From a virus: a DNA stretch of 64,000 nt. Where the stretch lies: the IMG/VR virus record IMGVR_UViG_3300012202_000039, positions 15,974 through 79,973 of that record. The stretch is one strand, 5' to 3'. Both the position numbers and the translations under genes were made by a program. Positions within the stretch are counted from its first letter, which is position 1, and each line of letters starts with the position of its first letter. This document shows positions 1,047 through 24,053 of this stretch, piece after piece. Under the pieces are notes generated by a model. The model did not search any database, was not told the DNA's origin, and was given only the letters and a program-made list of their open reading frames with translations.

Positions 1047-4000
1047 ATGCATATTTTGATTAAAGGATTTGGTCGAACTGGTGTAGTTTCTTCTAAAGTC
1101 GGCGGTAGGTCTTTTACAGAAACCGCGACGGATGGAGGAAATCTTAGTGGATTTGGTATCGGAGGTAATTACGGTTTAGGTGCATCAGCTATTATTCCTA
1201 ACACCGATCTAGAGTTACTAGACGGTCTAATCTCGTTTAGAAGTGACCAAATTGTTCGGAAAGTATACCGGGATATCTATTGGCACGACGTTATTGCTGG
1301 TGGTGCCGTCGATATTCAATCTACTATCCCTTTCTCAGATTTTAGCCTATCTGGTATCAACGATCCTAAAGTTCTCGAAGTCTACATGCAAGCTATTGAA
1401 AATATGTCTATCTTGACGTTGTTACCTTCAGTTAGGATCGACCAACTCGTCTTAGGCACATTTATCGGGGTAACTAACTTCGATAGAGAGATTAATAATT
1501 ATACTTCATTAACTCCGATTAACATAGATATGACGCAAATAACCCCGGCTCCATTGTTTGATATGGATCCCATTATTGATTTGCGTTTTGCTAAGGATAC
1601 TCAGCGGTACCTGAGGAATACTAAAGATCATAGGTACCAGCGTATCCGGAATAAAATGCCCCAATGGATGATCGATGGTATTTCCAAAGGACGCGTATTA
1701 TTAGATTCAGCTAACGTCATCTACTTACCTCGGAAGACTTTATCCACAAATAATCTCGGTACTTCCTATTTCCGTAGGATTTTACCGATACATATTATGG
1801 AAAAAGCTATATTACGAGGAAGCATACAACAGGCATATAGAAGGCAACGAGCTATCGGATGGGCGCGAGTCGGCGACGATGAATGGGAGCCTACAAACAA
1901 CGAACTAAGTTCTATTTTGAGTATGCTACAATGTTTGACGGGTGACACACTTATATCTATAGAAAATAAACTTACACGTTTAGATAAGATTTGTTCGCGT
2001 AAAGGTATGCAAAAAGATGAAGGTAAGAAAATAAATCTAAAGATAAAAGGCAAAGATGGTAAAATAGTTACTGCTAATAAGTGGTGGTATCGCGGTTACG
2101 ATTATGTTAATAACATTAAGACTGAGCACGGATACTCATTAAAAGCCACAGATACTCATCGTATACTGGTACTTAATGACAAATTAAAATTAATCTGGAA
2201 ATATACTAAAGATTTAAAGATCGGTGACAAACTTTGTTTAGATAGTAACATATCTAAAAGTGAAAATAATACCCAATTAAAGGTAGATATTAATCTACCT
2301 ACATTAGTTACTCGCCCGCAAAGTGGCGGTATGACAGCTAAAGCTATAGATATTCCTAAAGAAATGTACCCAAAATTAGCTTATTTATTAGGATTATTAG
2401 TTAGTGAGGGGCATGTCCATAAGCATTATGTAGCTATAACTAATAGTGCAGAAATTTTGCTCGAAGAAGCTATAGATTGTTTTAAAGAAATCTTCTATCT
2501 TAATCCTAGAATTGAGTGGATGGATAGAATAGGACAAGAAATAGTTATAAATGGTGTGCATACGGGTACTACTAGAAGTCTATCTGGTGTAGTACGTGCC
2601 CATAGCATATATGCCTCTCATATATTACAGAAGCTAGGCGTTAGCTCCAGTGAAACTCTTAGATTAAATGGTGATAAATATCCAGCAAATTATAAAGAAA
2701 TTCCTTGGTCTATTCTTCAAGCTGATGATGAATCTAAATATGCCTTTATTGCAGCATATTTAGATGGTGATGGCGGTCTCGAAGTACATGATACCAATTC
2801 GGGTAAAAATATACTTCTTATTATACGTAGTTTTAGTAAGAAATTACTAAAACAAATGCAGATAATGTTATTAGATCTAGGTTATCATTCTCATATATCC
2901 TATGATCTTAATAGGTTAACTATAAATCGAAATAATGCGGCTAAATTATATGCTAAAATATCAAAGTATCTCAAGCACCCAGATAGAATTATTAAAGATT
3001 GTTCTGGTCAGGCTAACGATATGGGTGAAGGTATTCCCGTAGCCCCTATTCGGAAGTTATTTCAATCTAGATTCATCCGCTCAGAATATAGAAAACACTT
3101 TTTCTTAAATGATGAAGGTAAAGAAATCAGTATTAAACATTATGGAGTATTTTTAGCTAAAACTTTAAGTCATAATACTCTTCGTACTGAAGCATATAAT
3201 AGAGATGAATATAAAAATATATTAGATGCTTTAAAAATTATTAGTAAGAAATTTTATAATACAGTTGTAGATTTACTAGGCGTTGGATATAGGTATGAAT
3301 CTATTACCTCTATTACTAAACTAGCTAAAAAGCAACATTTATATGATTTAACTATTGATAAAAAATCAGAGTCGGCTTTTGTCGCTAATGGTATAGTTGT
3401 TCACAATTCTGCTGATATGGACCCTATCGGCGCTTTTCTCGTAACTAGAAATGGTATTGATTATCAAGATATACGAGAAGGTGGACAGTTTTGGTCCTTC
3501 AATGATGTCTTCGATACCTTTTCTAACGCTAAAATGCGCGGGCTTGGAATTTCAGAGGGATTATTATCCCAAGAAAATACGTATTCAACACTCGAAGCAT
3601 CCATAAGTATGTTCATGGATCAAATAAAAAGTGATCGAGAACAGACAACGAGAGAAATGTTCACTAACCGTATATTCGCAAATATCGCTATTACTAACGA
3701 TTTTAAACGTAAAAATCCACGGATGGAAGTACCTAACGACGCTGAACAATACCCAACTTTAAGTTCTATGACGACTAAAGGTAGTCCTAGGGGAGTACAC
3801 CGCACTGAAGATGGCCGTTACTTCGCTGTTTGTAGTTCAGCTAGTGCTAGATCGCAACTAAGTGAATATCAGATACCCAGTGTTCATTGGCACAAACAGC
3901 TCGAACCTAAAGGTGATCGGGATTACGTTGATTTACTATCTACTCTAGAAGAAAAAGGTGTACCTGTTCCTCTGCGGGTGTACGCCGCATCCGTGGGTGT

Positions 4001-4394
4001 AGATTTAGATGCTATTGTTCAAGGTATGGATAACGACAAGAAACTCCGTAAAGAATTTGCTAAGTTTAAACAAGAAACTGGTGGTGGCGGTGATGAAGAA
4101 GAACAAGGTGGTGGACAAGGTCAGCAATTCGCTTCGGATCTGAGTAAAAGTGTGGGTAGTAGCGTAGCTCGTGTTGGTTTAGGTAATAGAACAACGGATG
4201 ATCCCCGCTACAAGATTAGAGGTTCTAATAATAAGGGTACACCGCAGGAACTTTCACGTAAAGGTGAAAAACTAGCTAACGAACGTATGCACAAGTTAGT
4301 AGCTAATATCCTAGCCGAGCGGCAACGTCAGGAAATCGTCAAGGAAAATAGCAAATTTAACAAACTTAAGGGTTTAAGGAAACCAAATAAATAG
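1047..4394 (+). CDS. portal protein (probable), intein-containing; about 623 aa after splicing
   Basis: Heads the head module upstream of protease, scaffold and MCP; spliced size fits a portal; charged low-complexity C-tail; clear intein inside. Confidence 0.7.
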   Translation: MHILIKGFGRTGVVSSKVGGRSFTETATDGGNLSGFGIGGNYGLGASAIIPNTDLELLDGLISFRSDQIVRKVYRDIYWHDVIAGGAVDIQSTIPFSDFSLSGINDPKVLEVYMQAIENMSILTLLPSVRIDQLVLGTFIGVTNFDREINNYTSLTPINIDMTQITPAPLFDMDPIIDLRFAKDTQRYLRNTKDHRYQRIRNKMPQWMIDGISKGRVLLDSANVIYLPRKTLSTNNLGTSYFRRILPIHIMEKAILRGSIQQAYRRQRAIGWARVGDDEWEPTNNELSSILSMLQCLTGDTLISIENKLTRLDKICSRKGMQKDEGKKINLKIKGKDGKIVTANKWWYRGYDYVNNIKTEHGYSLKATDTHRILVLNDKLKLIWKYTKDLKIGDKLCLDSNISKSENNTQLKVDINLPTLVTRPQSGGMTAKAIDIPKEMYPKLAYLLGLLVSEGHVHKHYVAITNSAEILLEEAIDCFKEIFYLNPRIEWMDRIGQEIVINGVHTGTTRSLSGVVRAHSIYASHILQKLGVSSSETLRLNGDKYPANYKEIPWSILQADDESKYAFIAAYLDGDGGLEVHDTNSGKNILLIIRSFSKKLLKQMQIMLLDLGYHSHISYDLNRLTINRNNAAKLYAKISKYLKHPDRIIKDCSGQANDMGEGIPVAPIRKLFQSRFIRSEYRKHFFLNDEGKEISIKHYGVFLAKTLSHNTLRTEAYNRDEYKNILDALKIISKKFYNTVVDLLGVGYRYESITSITKLAKKQHLYDLTIDKKSESAFVANGIVVHNSADMDPIGAFLVTRNGIDYQDIREGGQFWSFNDVFDTFSNAKMRGLGISEGLLSQENTYSTLEASISMFMDQIKSDREQTTREMFTNRIFANIAITNDFKRKNPRMEVPNDAEQYPTLSSMTTKGSPRGVHRTEDGRYFAVCSSASARSQLSEYQIPSVHWHKQLEPKGDRDYVDLLSTLEEKGVPVPLRVYAASVGVDLDAIVQGMDNDKKLRKEFAKFKQETGGGGDEEEQGGGQGQQFASDLSKSVGSSVARVGLGNRTTDDPRYKIRGSNNKGTPQELSRKGEKLANERMHKLVANILAERQRQEIVKENSKFNKLKGLRKPNK
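1932..3407 (+). mobile_element. intein with LAGLIDADG homing endonuclease (492 aa, C296-N787)
   Basis: N-junction Q|CLTGDTLI; block B TDTHRI; LAGLIDADG-like YLLGLLVSEG and FIAAYLDGDG; C-junction LYDLTI...FVANGIVVHN|S. Confidence 0.95.
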
Positions 4395-9090: not shown

Positions 9091-9900
9091 ATGTCAGTTA
9101 ATATTGTTCAAAATAAGTTTCTTGAATATATCGTCAGCGAATGTCACGATCGTGGTAATTTAATCGAGATGAATATTCATCTCGTAAATAATGTACGTTT
9201 AGTTGGACATATTATTGGTTACGATGACGATTCCATCATTCTTAATGGTCGTGGTAAAACGCAGATTGTCTTCAAGAAGGCTATTTTGACTATTTGTCCT
9301 GGCGACAAGGGTGACGTAAACATGCTTAAGGCATGTTTACCTGATACGCTTAGTGAAGCTGCGCTTAATAGGTTAGTAGGTAATACTAGTACATATAGGC
9401 ACTACACTTCTTCAAATTTAGATAAAACTAGCCACCAACCTTATTACGGTGAGCCCCAGACAGATTTAAATCCAGTAAAAGAACCTATTGATATAATCAA
9501 ACAAGTTGAAGGTAAGGTCGGCGAGGGTAGTTGTAGTGGGATCGGCGGTGAGGTTAATAACCAGCTAATTCCTAGTTATGATGCTATCCTGAACTACCAT
9601 AAGAATAAAGGTAATTCTGTTTCAGAAGAAGATAAGGTCAGTGATAATGCCGAGGAATCTCGGGCTCCTACTGAGAGAGAAGAATTTAATAAGTATCTAA
9701 AAGAGAAGTATTCTAGTTCAGATGATAAGGGACGTAAAGAACTTTTAGAACAATTAAAGCTAAAAAATAACATTGGCGCATGTTTTAGTGATCCTGATGA
9801 TGATATGTATTATCCTAGTAATATGAGTAATCTTCTTTCAGAAGAAGAGAAGATTACTCAAGAAATGCACGATAATGGTACTGACAGTGTTGCAGTTTAA
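9091..9900 (+). CDS. hfq: Hfq/Sm-like RNA chaperone domain with long acidic C-terminal extension
   Basis: NIVQNKFL...IHLVNNVRLVGHIIGYDDDSIIL...TQIVFKKAILTICP matches the Hfq pattern LQDxFL..IxLVNGxKLxGxIxxFD...SQxVYKHAISTxxP. Confidence 0.8.
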   Translation: MSVNIVQNKFLEYIVSECHDRGNLIEMNIHLVNNVRLVGHIIGYDDDSIILNGRGKTQIVFKKAILTICPGDKGDVNMLKACLPDTLSEAALNRLVGNTSTYRHYTSSNLDKTSHQPYYGEPQTDLNPVKEPIDIIKQVEGKVGEGSCSGIGGEVNNQLIPSYDAILNYHKNKGNSVSEEDKVSDNAEESRAPTEREEFNKYLKEKYSSSDDKGRKELLEQLKLKNNIGACFSDPDDDMYYPSNMSNLLSEEEKITQEMHDNGTDSVAV

Positions 9901-9926
9901 TTAAGTTCAAAGAGGAAATAATTAAG

Positions 9927-11054
9927 ATGTCTACGATTGATTTCCCCGAGTTAGATATTGAAACCTATATCTCTGCTGACCCTATCGACGTAGTACCAGA
10001 TAATAGCAAGGGTTCACAGAAGATTGCTATTCTAGGCTTAGGTCAAGCCGGCGGACGTATAGCAGAAGCTTTCCAAGACATTGGGTATAATAAAACTATT
10101 TATGTTAATACTACCGCACAAGATATTAATAATATTGTCTATAAATGTATTATTGGTATTACTGGTCGACCAGGCGGTGCTGGTAAGAATATGGCTATTG
10201 CTAGGGAAGCCTTTAATCAATGTGAATCAACTATTACTAACTTGATGACTAAAGTGTACGGTAAAGTTGATCATATTCTAGTATGTGCTGCGTTAGGCGG
10301 AGGTACTGGCTGCGGTTCCGTGGTTTCTGCTTTAGAATTAGCTAAGAAGTATATGCGTTATATCGGACACGCCGATGCAGATAAGCGAGTTGGGGCGGTT
10401 ATTACTATCCCAACTAATGGTGAACTTAACCCGCAAGTATTAAGTAATACTCTAGAAACCGCCGAAGAATTATCTAGGTTAGCAGATAATCAAGAAATCA
10501 GCCCTTTGATTATGGTGGATAACGAGAAGCTTAAGCTTCTCTATCAGACTAAAATTCCTATTGCGAAGTACCACACAACTATTAATAATCTTATTGTCCA
10601 GCTTATTGATAGTTTTAATACTATTTCTAACCAAGCTAGTGAATACATCACCTTCGACGCCACAGATTATGAAACCATCCTACAATGTGGCGGTCATATG
10701 ATTTCCGGGGTAACTCGGGTAGATAATTGGTTAGATAAAGATCTAGTAGTTAAAGCATTTCGAGATAATTTGATGGGTGCATTATTATCCTCTGATTTCG
10801 ACCTAACTACGGCTACTCACGGCGGTGTAGTAGTAATGGTTGACGAGGAGTTGATTAATACTGATGTAAATCTTCAAGCTTTTATTGAAGCTGGATTTGA
10901 TTCGATTAATCTCCTATGTCCTAAGGCCACTATTCATCGTGGTTTATACAAATGTAAGCCGACTAAGTTGAGTAAAGTTCGCGTATATACCACACTAGCT
11001 GGATTAAAGACACCTACTCGTAAATATGATAAGTTATCTGCTTTATTGAACTAA
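9927..11054 (+). CDS. tubulin/FtsZ superfamily GTPase
   Basis: GLGQAGGRIA, NTT..D, GGAGKN, signature GGGTGCG, DNE, T7-like FDATDY. Confidence 0.9.
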   Translation: MSTIDFPELDIETYISADPIDVVPDNSKGSQKIAILGLGQAGGRIAEAFQDIGYNKTIYVNTTAQDINNIVYKCIIGITGRPGGAGKNMAIAREAFNQCESTITNLMTKVYGKVDHILVCAALGGGTGCGSVVSALELAKKYMRYIGHADADKRVGAVITIPTNGELNPQVLSNTLETAEELSRLADNQEISPLIMVDNEKLKLLYQTKIPIAKYHTTINNLIVQLIDSFNTISNQASEYITFDATDYETILQCGGHMISGVTRVDNWLDKDLVVKAFRDNLMGALLSSDFDLTTATHGGVVVMVDEELINTDVNLQAFIEAGFDSINLLCPKATIHRGLYKCKPTKLSKVRVYTTLAGLKTPTRKYDKLSALLN

Positions 11055-11067
11055 AGGAGTAACACAA

Positions 11068-11280
11068 ATGAACGAACCTAAGAAAATTTTACATATTACA
11101 GTTGGTTCTGATGATTGGTATTCTACTAATGTAGAATTGGAGCAAGTTTATAATTTATTTAAAAATGGTATATTAAATGCGCATAATTGTGTTACACAAA
11201 GAGGTATTGAAGTTAAGGCTATAGATAATATTGAAGATATAGATGAAATTGTCATCAGGCGTAAGATGAAATTACCTTAA
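11068..11280 (+). CDS. small protein homologous to the portal segment flanking the intein site
   Basis: ILHITVGSDDWYSTNVEL...VTQRGI vs portal IGWARVGDDEWEPTNNEL...VTRNGI; AAGGAG RBS. Confidence 0.7.
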   Translation: MNEPKKILHITVGSDDWYSTNVELEQVYNLFKNGILNAHNCVTQRGIEVKAIDNIEDIDEIVIRRKMKLP

Positions 11281-11312
11281 ATAATACACCAAAACTAGCC
11301 AATTCTATATGG

Positions 11313-11347
11313 AATAGCCCTAAGGTATCACCTTAGGGCTATTTTTT
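11313..11347 (+). terminator. intrinsic terminator
   Basis: AATAGCCCTAAGGT-atc-ACCTTAGGGCTATT followed by a T-run. Confidence 0.85.
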
Positions 11348-11367
11348 CGTTTAAAGTTATCTAATTT

Positions 11368-11394
11368 ATTAGATACTATTCAATAGTATCTAAT
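11368..11394. promoter_or_regulatory. 13-bp inverted repeat directly after TAATTT (5' UTR hairpin or operator)
   Basis: ATTAGATACTATT-c-AATAGTATCTAAT. Confidence 0.5.
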
Positions 11395-11415
11395 TCTCTC
11401 CTAAAGGAATATAAA

Positions 11416-12336
11416 ATGTACCTAGGCCACGTAGTCAAAGCTGAAGCTATCCCTCAGTGGTTTTCTGATATGAATAAAGAAGGTCAACAAGGCTACTTAA
11501 AAGATCACCCTAACTCCAAGATTGCTCATACAGTTAAGAATAATCCGAAAGCTTTGAAATCTGGTAGTAGGGGTGGAACTAATAAACCAGCTCCACACGA
11601 TCCTAAGAAGACTCTAGATATTATCAAAAAGAATCCTAGGGTTCAGAAGGCGCTTAAACCAAATTCTCCAGAACGACAGGAATTAGCTGGTAATTTAAAG
11701 AAATATAAAAAATTAATGGATAAGACCTATAAAGGATTAGATTTAGAAACTAGAGATGCACTTAGGGCTACTTCTGCTAAACTAAAAGCTGGTAAGAAAT
11801 TAGATGAAAAAGATATGCAAGGTATAGTAAATTTAACAAATGAATATACTAAGAAAAATAAATACGGATTAGGTAAGGCGGCAGCCAATGCAGTTGGTGC
11901 GGGTATTGGTGTTGCTGCTATGAACGTGGGCGGAGCGTTAACATTATATACTGGTGGTTTGGCAGGAACATTAGGAATTGGGGCAGCAGGTACAGCTGCC
12001 GCTATTGCCGCTCCTCTTGGTATTGGGCTGTTAGCAGTTGGCGCAGGTATATATGGGTATAATGCATTTAAGGGTATTAGAGGAAATTTTAGAAATTTAC
12101 GAGGCAAAACTAAAATTAACGACAGAGAAACCCAAGAATTACTTAAACACAAGAATGAATTCAGTACTATTACAGCTTACTTCTACACTAAAGCAGAAGA
12201 CAATACTCCCGATGATCCTATTCAAACTATTCTAGATCACATGTCTAAGGCGGTGCAGACTACTAATCTCTCCCCAGAGATGTGGGCACAGATGTTAACT
12301 CCTATTAAAAGTGAAGCTAAAGAAAAAGAGGAATAG
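11416..12336 (+). CDS. glycine-zipper family paralog A (putative internal head/ejection protein)
   Basis: WFSDMNKEGQQGYLKDHPNSK motif, NSPERQ motif, central Gly/Ala hydrophobic segment. Confidence 0.6.
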   Translation: MYLGHVVKAEAIPQWFSDMNKEGQQGYLKDHPNSKIAHTVKNNPKALKSGSRGGTNKPAPHDPKKTLDIIKKNPRVQKALKPNSPERQELAGNLKKYKKLMDKTYKGLDLETRDALRATSAKLKAGKKLDEKDMQGIVNLTNEYTKKNKYGLGKAAANAVGAGIGVAAMNVGGALTLYTGGLAGTLGIGAAGTAAAIAAPLGIGLLAVGAGIYGYNAFKGIRGNFRNLRGKTKINDRETQELLKHKNEFSTITAYFYTKAEDNTPDDPIQTILDHMSKAVQTTNLSPEMWAQMLTPIKSEAKEKEE

Positions 12337-22634: not shown

Positions 22635-22728
22635 CTAATTTAAGCGACATTATATTATATAACTCAAGATCTCTATTAAAACTGTAAATGAACAGAGATC
22701 TTGAGTTATAAATGTCGGCTTAAGTTAG
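22635..22728 (+). promoter_or_regulatory. long hairpin with CTGTAAAT in its loop, reaching the endonuclease RBS
   Basis: Perfect 17-bp arms 22658-22674 and 22694-22710, extended by 22635-22651 pairing with 22711-22728. Confidence 0.75.
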
Positions 22729-22739
22729 GAGAGTTTAAA

Positions 22740-24053
22740 TTGGAACGTTCAGAACAATATTATGATAGTTTAAAGAACGAACATATTAGAAAATTTAACG
22801 AAACACATGGTAAGGGTGAATATAAATTCTTATCTAAGATTTATCGTAAACAATTAGACACATATAAATATAAGCATAAATGTGGGCTAATTTTTGAATC
22901 TACGGCTATGAGCCTACAACATGGCAGATCTAAGTGTGTTTGCCAACATAAAATAAATATTCCGAATACACCTGAAGGGTTTAAAATTAGATCTGCTGCT
23001 TCAAATAAAGGCCAAGCTGGACGTTATAAAACCTATCGTAAGAAAATGCAAGTAATATTAAACGAAAAGTACGGTGAAAATGAATATAAACTTTTAACTA
23101 AGAAATATGAGGGTGGAACTAAAACTTATACCTTTAAGCATTCTTGTGGATTAAAATTTAAATCTACTGCTGCTTGTTTATCTAGAGGTTTATCTAAGTG
23201 TCCTTGTTTACACATTGTAAGAAGTAAAGGACTTACTCTAGAAGAACATAATATAGATTTACAAGCTAAAAAAGGTAACGATTATACTTGTACTAAATAT
23301 TTTAGTATGCATGATCCAAATAATGAATATATACACAATATATGTGATAATGCTTTTAAATCCCGTGCAGCAGCTGTTCTAGGTGATTTAAAAGGTTGTA
23401 TCCATTGCTCGGGTAAAGACGGTAGTTTAATTAATAGAGTGACTAAACGTCAATTTATGAAAGAATTAAATAGTGTTGAAAATGGAAGAGATTACCGAAT
23501 TATCGGAGATTTTGAGGGTAAGTCTAAAATAACAGAGTTTAAACATAATTGTGGTAATAAATTTAAAGCTAAGCCTTATGATGTATTAATGAATCGTATT
23601 AGATGTTATACATGTTATCCTATATTAAGTAATAAAGAAGTAGAAGTAAATAATAAAATTTTTACTTTACGTGGATATGAACCTTTCGCTTTAGAACGAT
23701 TATTAAAGCTTTACAGTTATAAAGATATTCTTGATTCTAAGTCAAAAGAGTTTCCTCATTTTAAATACACAATAAATAGGATACGCCGAAATTATATTCC
23801 AGATCTTTATGTTAAATCTAATAATCTAGTAATTGAGGTTAAGAGTTTATCAACTATGGGTTTAGAAAATTCATATTTTAATGATAAAGATGGTATCGAT
23901 TTATTTGATAGAAATAGCGCCAAAGCAAAAGCAGTACTAAGAAAGGGTTACAAATTTAGGATGTACTTATTCGATAGTAAAGGTGTACGGATAACACTAC
24001 CAAAATACTGGTATACGTTATCTAAAACAGATGTGTTAGATTATATTTCTTAA
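22740..24053 (+). CDS. free-standing homing-type endonuclease: repeated HxCG/CxxC zinc-ribbon modules plus C-terminal PD-(D/E)xK domain
   Basis: Four H-x-C-(G/D)-x-x-F...C-x1-2-C repeats; RGYEPFAL...YIPDLY...IEVKS; TTG start at 22740 has AGGAG 8 nt upstream (ORF track start is 22701). Confidence 0.75.
   Translation: MERSEQYYDSLKNEHIRKFNETHGKGEYKFLSKIYRKQLDTYKYKHKCGLIFESTAMSLQHGRSKCVCQHKINIPNTPEGFKIRSAASNKGQAGRYKTYRKKMQVILNEKYGENEYKLLTKKYEGGTKTYTFKHSCGLKFKSTAACLSRGLSKCPCLHIVRSKGLTLEEHNIDLQAKKGNDYTCTKYFSMHDPNNEYIHNICDNAFKSRAAAVLGDLKGCIHCSGKDGSLINRVTKRQFMKELNSVENGRDYRIIGDFEGKSKITEFKHNCGNKFKAKPYDVLMNRIRCYTCYPILSNKEVEVNNKIFTLRGYEPFALERLLKLYSYKDILDSKSKEFPHFKYTINRIRRNYIPDLYVKSNNLVIEVKSLSTMGLENSYFNDKDGIDLFDRNSAKAKAVLRKGYKFRMYLFDSKGVRITLPKYWYTLSKTDVLDYIS

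What the first reader, a model, noticed from the sequence alone, without database searches (positions are those of the whole stretch)
11068..11280. Stand-alone mini-copy of the portal segment that flanks the intein site (candidate decoy or packaging modulator)
Seen: this 70-aa ORF has its own AAGGAG RBS. It aligns to the spliced portal across the intein junction (nt 1854-1931 plus about 3408-3470): ILHITVGSDDWYSTNVELEQVYNLFK vs IGWARVGDDEWEPTNNELSSILSMLQ (9/26 identical, ungapped), then VTQRGI vs VTRNGI. It is intact but diverged and sits with non-structural genes. Known: the portal clip is where terminase docks, and Avs4-type STAND defence ATPases recognise portal through surfaces that include the clip. 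Inference: the segment is the beta-alpha-beta clip, and the small protein acts as a decoy for portal-sensing immunity or as a regulator/competitor of terminase docking.
Basis: partly seen in the sequence, partly recalled or inferred. Interest (0 to 1): 0.85.

Follow-up and report, generated by a model that had tools for sequence, protein, structure and literature searches.

The report
Free-standing portal clip mini-protein
An uncultured soil jumbo phage carries a 70-residue gene that is an old, separate copy of the exposed "clip" tip of its head portal, where the DNA-packaging motor, the neck and some bacterial immune sensors dock. It most likely acts as a soluble mimic of that tip, but nothing it binds has been shown.

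Summary
ORF 11068-11280 is intact, has an AAGGAG ribosome-binding site and a strong terminator. It is homologous to the portal segment that the intein interrupts. This is shown by pairwise Smith-Waterman (58 against 29.9 +/- 4.2 in shuffles), by the profile hitting both portal halves, and by hhalign of small relatives against portals (99.1%, E 1.9e-18). By topology the segment is the portal clip.

The ORF is not a one-off. It belongs to an unnamed family of free, often tandem clip domains, including BcepSauron gp210, BCSR5 and Lu11 gp133 (phrog_11049). These are scattered through a minority of jumbo phages with this portal type. This scan has reported such genes before on other DNA.

The ORF keeps all 7 invariant family residues. 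It has no close ortholog, and its branch is among the longest in the tree. Its origin, whether from the free-clip family or from its own portal, is unresolved.

Function is inferred only. I favour a soluble clip mimic, most plausibly a decoy for clip-docking host sensors (published: SpbK on the SPbeta portal clip; Avs4 contacts the clip). Terminase or neck competition is the main rival.

The link to the neighbouring tubulin gene is not conserved. Structure matches were not significant.

The parts
11054..11059 (+). AAGGAG ribosome-binding site. It lies 8 nt upstream of the ATG and overlaps the last base of the tubulin gene's stop codon.
   Evidence: Read directly from the sequence.
11068..11280 (+). 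70-aa free-standing portal clip domain protein (P0001). Predicted elements are strand 6-12, helix 21-33, strand 47-53 and strand 59-63.
   Evidence: It keeps the family-invariant residues H9, G13, W17, T20, L24, F31 and T43.
11311..11355 (+). Intrinsic terminator-like hairpin (16 pairs) followed by a T run. It closes the Hfq-like / tubulin / clip gene string.
1839..1931 (+). N-extein half of the portal's own clip: the end of the stem helix, the first strand, the tip loop and the clip helix. It is homologous to ORF residues 2-33.
1932..3407 (+). LAGLIDADG intein (portal aa 296-787) inserted at the C-terminal end of the clip helix.
   Evidence: Pfam PF14890 and PF14528. Junctions come, and the profile break at model position 33.
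3408..3518 (+). C-extein half of the portal's own clip (loop and the two later strands). It is homologous to ORF residues 33-67.
9927..11054 (+). Tubulin/FtsZ-family gene immediately upstream (13-nt gap). It is context only and not a conserved partner.
   Evidence: Pfam PF00091, 41.2 bits. Tubulin was found in only 1 of 24 related jumbo-phage records, 85 kb from that record's free clip gene.

Best explanation
The ORF is a real gene for a free-standing portal clip domain. It comprises the last turn of the first stem helix plus the strand, tip loop, helix and two strands of the clip, with nothing else of the portal. It belongs to an unnamed, fast-evolving family of free, single or tandem clip domains that occur sporadically in jumbo phages with phiRSL1/Lu11/BcepSauron-type portals (phrog_16240). 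These points are shown.

Inferred: it is made late, together with the head genes, as a small soluble protein. It displays the same exposed surface as the portal clip and so occupies a protein that normally docks on that clip. My preferred partner, at about 30% on its own, is a host immune sensor that reads portals through the clip, of the SpbK or Avs4 kind. A monomeric clip could bind such a sensor without offering the portal ring on which SpbK-type and RAZR-type sensors cluster to fire. The phage's own terminase or neck proteins are the alternative partners.
For: Homology is supported, and by hhalign of the small proteins against 21 portals (probability 99.1%, E 1.9e-18, portal columns 271-331).

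The family is supported by several results:
- phmmer against 1.8 billion representatives gave 9 genuine small relatives, 76-256 aa, 6 of them with two tandem domains.
- BcepSauron gp210, BCSR5 and Lu11 gp133 hit portal profile positions 291-346 at E 1e-8 to 1e-14.
- Free copies sit beside a full portal in 9 of 24 IMG/VR jumbo records, at E 6e-9 to 2.5e-23 and 35-85 kb from the portal.

The ORF keeps 7 of 7 invariant columns and has its own RBS and terminator.

The clip assignment rests, together with PMC4493910 and PMC12847820.

An accessory role is supported by these results:
- Distribution is patchy: 3 of 18 portal-picked records, 0 of 5 near-complete ones, and 8 of 94 GenBank records, which is 5 phages.
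- End branches of free clips are about 0.6-1.8, against a median of 0.13 for all rows.
- Other members sit in arrays of small unknown genes.
- Other members are fused to small phage accessory domains: Phage_gp49_66, DUF1653, and a sub-threshold Acb2/Tad1 hairpin hit.
- The motif is essentially phage-restricted: 38 loci in viral contigs, against one true hit (a portal) in 185,579 prokaryote genomes.

There is published precedent that the clip is an immune target. SpbK's N-domain docks on YonE clip domains, and a clip-helix mutation allows escape. EcAvs4 contacts stem, clip and wing.
Against: No binding partner has been shown. The ORF has no close ortholog, and the only two runs that hold it are identical, so purifying selection on this copy is inferred only from retained motifs.

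The tip loop is altered (WYST instead of the near-invariant WxPT), and the TR motif reads TQR.

The monomer model is of low confidence (pLDDT 58.5).

Avs-type sensors use extended interfaces over stem, clip and wing, so a 50-residue clip alone may bind them poorly.

Two relatives (P0004, P0012) begin with signal-peptide-like, twin-arginine-like N-termini by eye. This does not fit a cytoplasmic decoy for every member.

The host and its defence systems are unknown.
Confidence: 0.5

Rival explanations
1. It is a packaging or head-completion regulator. The free clip binds the phage's own large terminase or neck/adaptor proteins. This would buffer them or time their docking on the portal, or it would block the packaging machinery of a co-infecting related phage.
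For: In T4 the clip is the attachment site of gp17 and of the neck protein gp13, and tip residues 291-296 are proposed to contact gp17 (PMC4493910). The tip loop and the start of the helix (G-x3-W-x-P-T-x2-E-L) hold several of the invariant or near-invariant columns shared by portals and free clips. In this phage the gene lies in the head module and is co-oriented with portal and protease.
Against: A core morphogenetic role does not fit the patchy distribution or the long branches. In other phages the gene lies 35-85 kb from the portal, among small unknown genes. Competing with one's own portal would be costly. No terminase gene was found in the 80-kb record to test this.
Confidence: 0.2
2. 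It binds portal subunits themselves. The free clip would pair its strands with the clip strands of a portal monomer, as neighbouring subunits do in the ring. It would then act as an assembly chaperone or cap, or as a poison of foreign portals.
For: [quoted passage not shown] Invariant residues of free clips include the strand motifs H-I-T-x-G and T-R. Six of the nine genuine relatives found by phmmer carry two tandem domains, which could imitate adjacent subunits.
Against: There is no direct evidence. The distribution is patchy. The invariant residues may simply hold the fold together.
Confidence: 0.1
3. It is a decaying or function-less remnant: a fragment copied from a portal gene, or brought in with mobile DNA, that is still open by chance.
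For: There is no close ortholog in 5.8 billion proteins. Its end branch is among the longest in the tree (1.51) and its composition is odd. It has lost the near-invariant Pro19. GC is 27.7% and GC3 is 18.3%, below its neighbours and similar to the intein. Confidence of the fold is low.
Against: All 7 invariant positions are kept, at only about 19-36% identity to the other aligned clip segments. The frame is intact, with a good RBS and its own terminator. The family persists as intact genes in many phages.
Confidence: 0.08
4. It is an adaptor of the neighbouring tubulin (a TubR/TubY-like role), linking filaments to capsids or to packaging proteins as part of an Hfq-tubulin-clip system.
For: There is a 13-nt gap to the tubulin gene on the same strand, and one terminator follows the three genes.
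Against: Tubulin (PF00091) is present in only 1 of 24 related jumbo-phage records, 85 kb from that record's free clip. Of the 9 records with a free clip, 8 have no tubulin hit. No neighbour of free clip genes elsewhere resembles the window's tubulin or Hfq-like gene. No DNA-binding domain was detected.
Confidence: 0.05

Closest known systems
Clip domain of tailed-phage portal proteins (T4 gp20 residues 279-358; SPbeta YonE 270-325; here the phrog_16240 portals of phiRSL1-, Lu11-, BcepSauron- and Erwinia Y3-type jumbo phages)
   Same: The sequence is homologous at profile level (E 1.9e-18). It has the same order of elements, with three strands and one helix, and the same invariant residues.
   Different: It is a protein on its own, without wing, stem or crown, so it cannot form a portal. 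Its tip loop has lost the conserved proline.
Free clip-domain proteins of cultured jumbo phages: BcepSauron gp210 and BcepSaruman (two tandem domains), BCSR5 QRE00113 and Lu11 gp133 (phrog_11049, 'unknown function')
   Same: They share the same stand-alone domain and motif, the same type of phage, and an accessory, patchy distribution.
   Different: Identity is only about 25-35%. This copy has a single domain, is the shortest seen (70 aa), and lies in the head module rather than among small early-type genes. It does not reach phrog_11049 directly at E <= 0.01.
Clip-docking and portal-sensing defence systems (SpbK/YonE; Avs4, Avs11, RAZR) and the phage counter-measure Nip
   Same: They show that the clip is a surface read by host immunity and that phages encode small proteins to escape portal sensing.
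   Different: Nip blocks the NADase domain of SpbK and is not a portal mimic. No portal-fragment decoy turned up in the papers I searched or read.

Membership tests
Portal clip domain (phrog_16240-type portals) | Significant sequence or profile similarity to the clip segment of portals | tested here: met
   hhalign gives 99.1%, E 1.9e-18. The domain profile hits the ORF and both halves of the window's portal. A shuffle test gives 0 of 3000.
Portal clip domain (phrog_16240-type portals) | Three strands and one helix in the order strand, helix, strand, strand | tested here: met
   AlphaFold model: E6-12, H21-33, E47-53, E59-63, but pLDDT is only 58.5.
Portal clip domain (phrog_16240-type portals) | Three-dimensional match to a solved portal clip | tested here: inconclusive
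   Foldseek E >= 2 and VIA Z <= 2.8. The HFTV1 portal (232-293) and the phiXacJX1 connector (220-267) are among the top rows, but they are tied with unrelated folds.
Portal clip domain (phrog_16240-type portals) | Embedded between the two stem helices of a full portal subunit | tested here: not met
   The ORF is 70 aa with its own start, stop, RBS and terminator. It is therefore a homolog of the domain, not a portal.
Portal clip domain (phrog_16240-type portals) | Docks terminase and neck proteins | not testable with these tools
Free clip-domain family (phrog_11049, BcepSauron gp210 and relatives) | Small protein carrying the motif R-x-I-x-H-I-T-x-G-x3-W-x-P-T-x2-E-L...F...T-R-x-G | tested here: met
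   7 of 7 invariant columns are kept. Of the 4 near-invariant columns, E23 is kept, R5 is K, P19 is S and R44 is Q. phmmer hits to 9 members range from E 7.7e-6 to 7.2e-4.
Free clip-domain family (phrog_11049, BcepSauron gp210 and relatives) | Direct match to the phrog_11049 profile | tested here: not met
   Only a weak hit to phrog_5732 (E 0.0032) was listed at E <= 0.01.
Free clip-domain family (phrog_11049, BcepSauron gp210 and relatives) | Groups with free clips rather than with its own portal in a tree | tested here: inconclusive
   In the ML tree it is sister to free clips L008 and P0005. Forcing it onto its own portal lineage costs 15.6 lnL, but p-AU is 0.26 and only 55 columns are available.
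Anti-defence decoy against portal sensors | Binds a portal sensor and relieves defence | not testable with these tools
   There is only precedent that the clip is sensed. The host is unknown.
Tubulin partition or positioning adaptor (TubR/TubY-like) | Conserved pairing with a tubulin gene and a DNA-binding fold | tested here: not met
   Tubulin is in 1 of 24 related records and is not adjacent there. No DNA-binding domain was detected.

The most novel reading that the evidence does not exclude
Free clip domains are a widespread, undescribed class of phage counter-defence proteins. They would be fragments of a conserved structural protein, released as soluble monomers (or tandem pairs) that soak up host sensors which read the portal clip or need the portal ring as an activation platform. 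This would be a 'structural-protein fragment decoy' strategy against pattern-recognition immunity.
Probability: 0.25. Interest if true: 0.85.

Novelty: new variant of a known kind. Interest (0 to 1): 0.6.

Why it matters
Portals are among the conserved phage proteins that bacterial pattern-recognition systems sense (Avs4, Avs11, RAZR, SpbK), and at least SpbK docks on the clip itself. In the papers I searched and read, I found no description of phages answering such sensors with mimics of the sensed part.

A recurrent, fast-evolving family of free clip domains gives a concrete, cheap test in cultured phages (BcepSauron, Lu11, BCSR5). Delete the gene or express it, then ask what it binds. If the partner turns out to be the terminase or neck instead, the family would be a new kind of packaging regulator.

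Either way, the databases currently file these genes as 'hypothetical' or wrongly as 'portal protein'.

Tried and rejected
The contigs of the nearest portal relatives (P0014, P0017) could not be fetched, so synteny and dN/dS for this ORF could not be examined.
- **Close relatives:** The search for related loci with the N-extein found none in viral contigs. blastn of the region against GenBank phages found no match.
- **Complex prediction** of three copies of the ORF gave 'no answer' (score 0.01 against a mark of 0.42). This is not evidence either way.
- **Sequencing runs:** no RNA holder is listed. The two soil DNA runs that hold the stretch give contigs identical to the window, with the same break points. 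They are probably not independent and show no polymorphism.
- **Structure searches:** Foldseek and VIA searches with the low-confidence ORF model gave nothing significant. The ESM Atlas structure neighbours were ubiquitin-like folds and small viral hypotheticals, on a model of pLDDT 0.55, and were not used.
- **False positives:** P0003 (1735 aa) and P0007 (436 aa) are repeat-driven. My early idea that P0003 was an intein-bearing portal was wrong.
- **Neighbours** of free clip genes in other phages gave only 'unknown function' PHROGs.
- **Terminase** Pfam models found nothing in the 80-kb record.
- **PDB** sequence searches with the two portal exteins gave only chance hits.
- **Tree:** the quick tree's clean split of free clips from portals is not robust. 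A constrained search found a better tree, and AU tests reject none of the placements.
- **Gao et al. 2022** (Avs4 structure) is not held in the library. The Avs4-clip contact is cited second-hand from PMC12847820.

Full report
**What is there**

ORF 11068-11280 (+) encodes 70 residues. AAGGAG lies at 11054-11059, 8 nt before the ATG, and overlaps the last base of the stop codon of the upstream tubulin-family gene. A hairpin of 16 pairs with a T run follows at 11311-11345.

The gene lies in the late head module, all on the + strand:
- portal with a LAGLIDADG intein (1047-4394)
- prohead protease (7220)
- an Hfq-domain protein (9091)
- a tubulin/FtsZ-family protein (9927)
- this ORF
- several unknown genes
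- a virion protein and the major head protein (20713, 21483)
- tail sheath (26394)

The window is part of an 80-kb IMG/VR record. The same protein is on a 185-kb contig. The DNA was found only in soil metagenome runs.

**Is the similarity to the portal real?**

Yes. BLASTP of the ORF against the spliced portal gives 13/43 identities across the junction (26.6 bits, pairwise E 6e-5). Smith-Waterman scores 58 against 29.9 +/- 4.2 for 3000 shuffles, and none reaches it. The portal is the best of 141 window ORFs, and the runner-up scores 38.

Independent support comes from outside the window:
- tblastn of the ORF against GenBank phages finds, as its best (weak) hits, the same portal segment in other jumbo phages and small proteins that carry it.
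- phmmer against 1.8 billion representatives finds 9 genuine small relatives at E 7.7e-6 to 7.2e-4. Two further hits are repeat artefacts.
- A profile of these small proteins matches a profile of 21 intein-less portals at 99.1% probability, E 1.9e-18, over portal columns 271-331.
- A joint profile hits the ORF at 4e-20 and hits the two halves of the window's own portal at model positions 2-33 and 33-67. The intein therefore sits at the end of the domain's helix.

**Which part of the portal is it?**

An AlphaFold model of the closest intein-less portal (P0014, 57% identical over the searched N-extein region; pLDDT 62) has the portal fold. Its best Foldseek matches are T4 gp20, lambda and other portals. 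The homologous stretch (about 255-315) lies between helix 236-261 and helix 321-336 and contains one helix (279-294). A 39-residue helix follows.

This is the stem-clip-stem topology. The T4 clip (279-358) is 'three beta-strands and helix alpha6' joining the two stem helices. It is exposed outside the capsid and is the attachment site of gp17 and gp13 (PMC4493910). The SPbeta YonE clip is described in the same way (PMC12847820).

The ORF model has strand 6-12, helix 21-33 and strands 47-53 and 59-63, but at pLDDT 58.5. Its matches to solved portals (HFTV1 232-293, phiXacJX1 220-267) are not significant. The clip assignment therefore rests on sequence homology plus topology, not on a 3D match of the ORF.

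**A family, not a one-off**

A degenerate DNA pattern for the motif found 38 loci in IMG/VR. Most are portals of 520-690 aa, and seven are small proteins of 95-280 aa on contigs of 68-278 kb.

In cultured phages the free form occurs in BcepSauron and BcepSaruman (gp210, two tandem domains, named 'portal protein' in RefSeq), BCSR5, Lu11 gp133 (phrog_11049) and HRDY3.

Searching whole records gave these counts:
- All 24 jumbo records have a portal. Nine also have a free copy, 35-85 kb away from it.
- Among 18 records picked through their portal, 3 have a free copy. None of the 5 that are at least 90% complete has one.
- In GenBank, 8 of 94 matching records (5 phages) have a second place.
- The strict motif is virtually absent from 185,579 prokaryote genomes. 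The one true hit is a portal on a 175-kb contig of a MAG.

Other members of the family vary:
- Six of the nine phmmer relatives carry two tandem domains.
- Some are fused to Phage_gp49_66 or DUF1653. One has a sub-threshold Acb2/Tad1-hairpin hit (E 0.034).
- Two have signal-peptide-like N-termini by eye.
- Their neighbours are small genes of unknown function.

**State of this copy**

In the 33-row alignment the ORF keeps all seven invariant residues (H9, G13, W17, T20, L24, F31, T43). It has Ser for the near-invariant Pro19 and reads TQR for TR.

Its own portal, and that portal's closest relative P0014, have lost the invariant His (W and M respectively), while the ORF keeps it.

The ORF's end branch is among the longest in the tree, at 1.51. 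Free clips run about 0.6-1.8, against a median of 0.13 for all rows.

The maximum-likelihood tree puts the ORF with free clips (L008, P0005). Forcing it onto its own portal lineage costs 15.6 log-likelihood units, but the AU test does not reject this (p 0.26). Nor does it reject a single clade of all free clips (p 0.38). Only 55 columns are available. The origin is therefore unresolved, though a recent local copy is the less likely reading.

GC (27.7%) and GC3 (18.3%) are below the flanking genes and resemble the intein.

No close ortholog exists in the searched collections. The only two runs holding the DNA give identical contigs. Selection on this copy could therefore not be measured.

**The neighbouring tubulin**

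An earlier first-reader note proposed an Hfq-tubulin-mini-portal system. Tubulin (PF00091) occurs in 1 of the 24 related records, 85 kb from that record's free clip gene. Eight of the nine records with free clips have no tubulin hit. None of the free-clip loci shares the window's tubulin or Hfq-like gene. The adjacency is therefore not a conserved feature of the family.

**How it most likely works**

Shown:
- It is a clip homolog on its own.
- The family is recurrent.
- The distribution is patchy and evolution is fast.

Inferred: it is a soluble mimic of the exposed clip that occupies a clip-binding protein.

Published work makes a host sensor a credible partner. SpbK's N-terminal domain docks on the clip domains of the SPbeta portal ring, and this clustering activates its NADase. 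A clip-helix substitution (A291P) lets the phage escape. [quoted passage not shown] RAZR needs the portal ring as a scaffold (PMC13017515).

A monomeric clip could bind a clip reader without providing the ring. The gene's position among late head genes would produce it at the same time as the portal.

Against this, Avs-type interfaces are extended, the tip loop of this copy is altered, and some relatives look exported.

The main rival is competition for terminase or neck docking, the clip's known function. Pairing with portal subunits through the clip's inter-subunit sheet is a third option. A homo-trimer prediction gave no verdict (not evidence).

**Novelty**

I found no paper describing free portal clip domains or portal-fragment decoys. 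Databases label them hypothetical, 'unknown function' (phrog_11049) or, wrongly, 'portal protein'.

This scan has reported the same kind of gene before on at least six other genomes. Those reports reached the same reading and left the same gap, which is that no partner is known. I used them as leads only.

Noticed in passing
window 1932-3407: The portal's LAGLIDADG intein is inserted exactly at the C-terminal end of the clip helix (profile position 33). Eight of 30 portal homologs also carry intein Pfam hits, and some appear to sit at other sites. This portal family is a recurrent intein host.
   Followed up: partly
window 11068-11280 compared with 9091-12336: The clip ORF has GC 27.7% and GC3 18.3%, clearly below its neighbours (36-38% and 27-30%) and close to the intein (31% and 19.5%). 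This may hint at separate acquisition, or it may only reflect the gene's small size.
   Followed up: no
window 9927-11054: This is a tubulin/FtsZ-family gene inside the head module. Its nearest cultured relative is Bacillus phage G gp138, at 25.7% identity. Tubulin is absent from 23 of 24 related jumbo-phage records.
   Followed up: partly
window 9091-9900: A 269-aa protein with an N-terminal Hfq/Sm domain (Pfam PF17209, E 3e-11) and a tail of about 200 residues. It lies directly upstream of the tubulin gene.
   Followed up: no
L002 2375-2839 (NC_049851.1, BcepSauron gp210): RefSeq names this 154-aa protein 'portal protein'. It is two tandem free clip domains, not a portal. GenBank calls it hypothetical.
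   Followed up: yes
L080 (CAYUTI010000002.1, 174,909 bp): This contig, binned as a Woesearchaeota MAG, encodes a phrog_16240-type portal (556-aa frame, E 1.9e-23). It is probably a mis-binned jumbo phage.
   Followed up: partly
window 22701-24053: An HNH endonuclease gene lies directly after the major head protein gene. It is a second sign, after the intein, of mobile endonucleases in the structural module.
   Followed up: no
P0004 and P0012: These two tandem free-clip proteins start with twin-arginine or signal-peptide-like N-termini, so some family members may be exported. No signal-peptide predictor was run.
   Followed up: no
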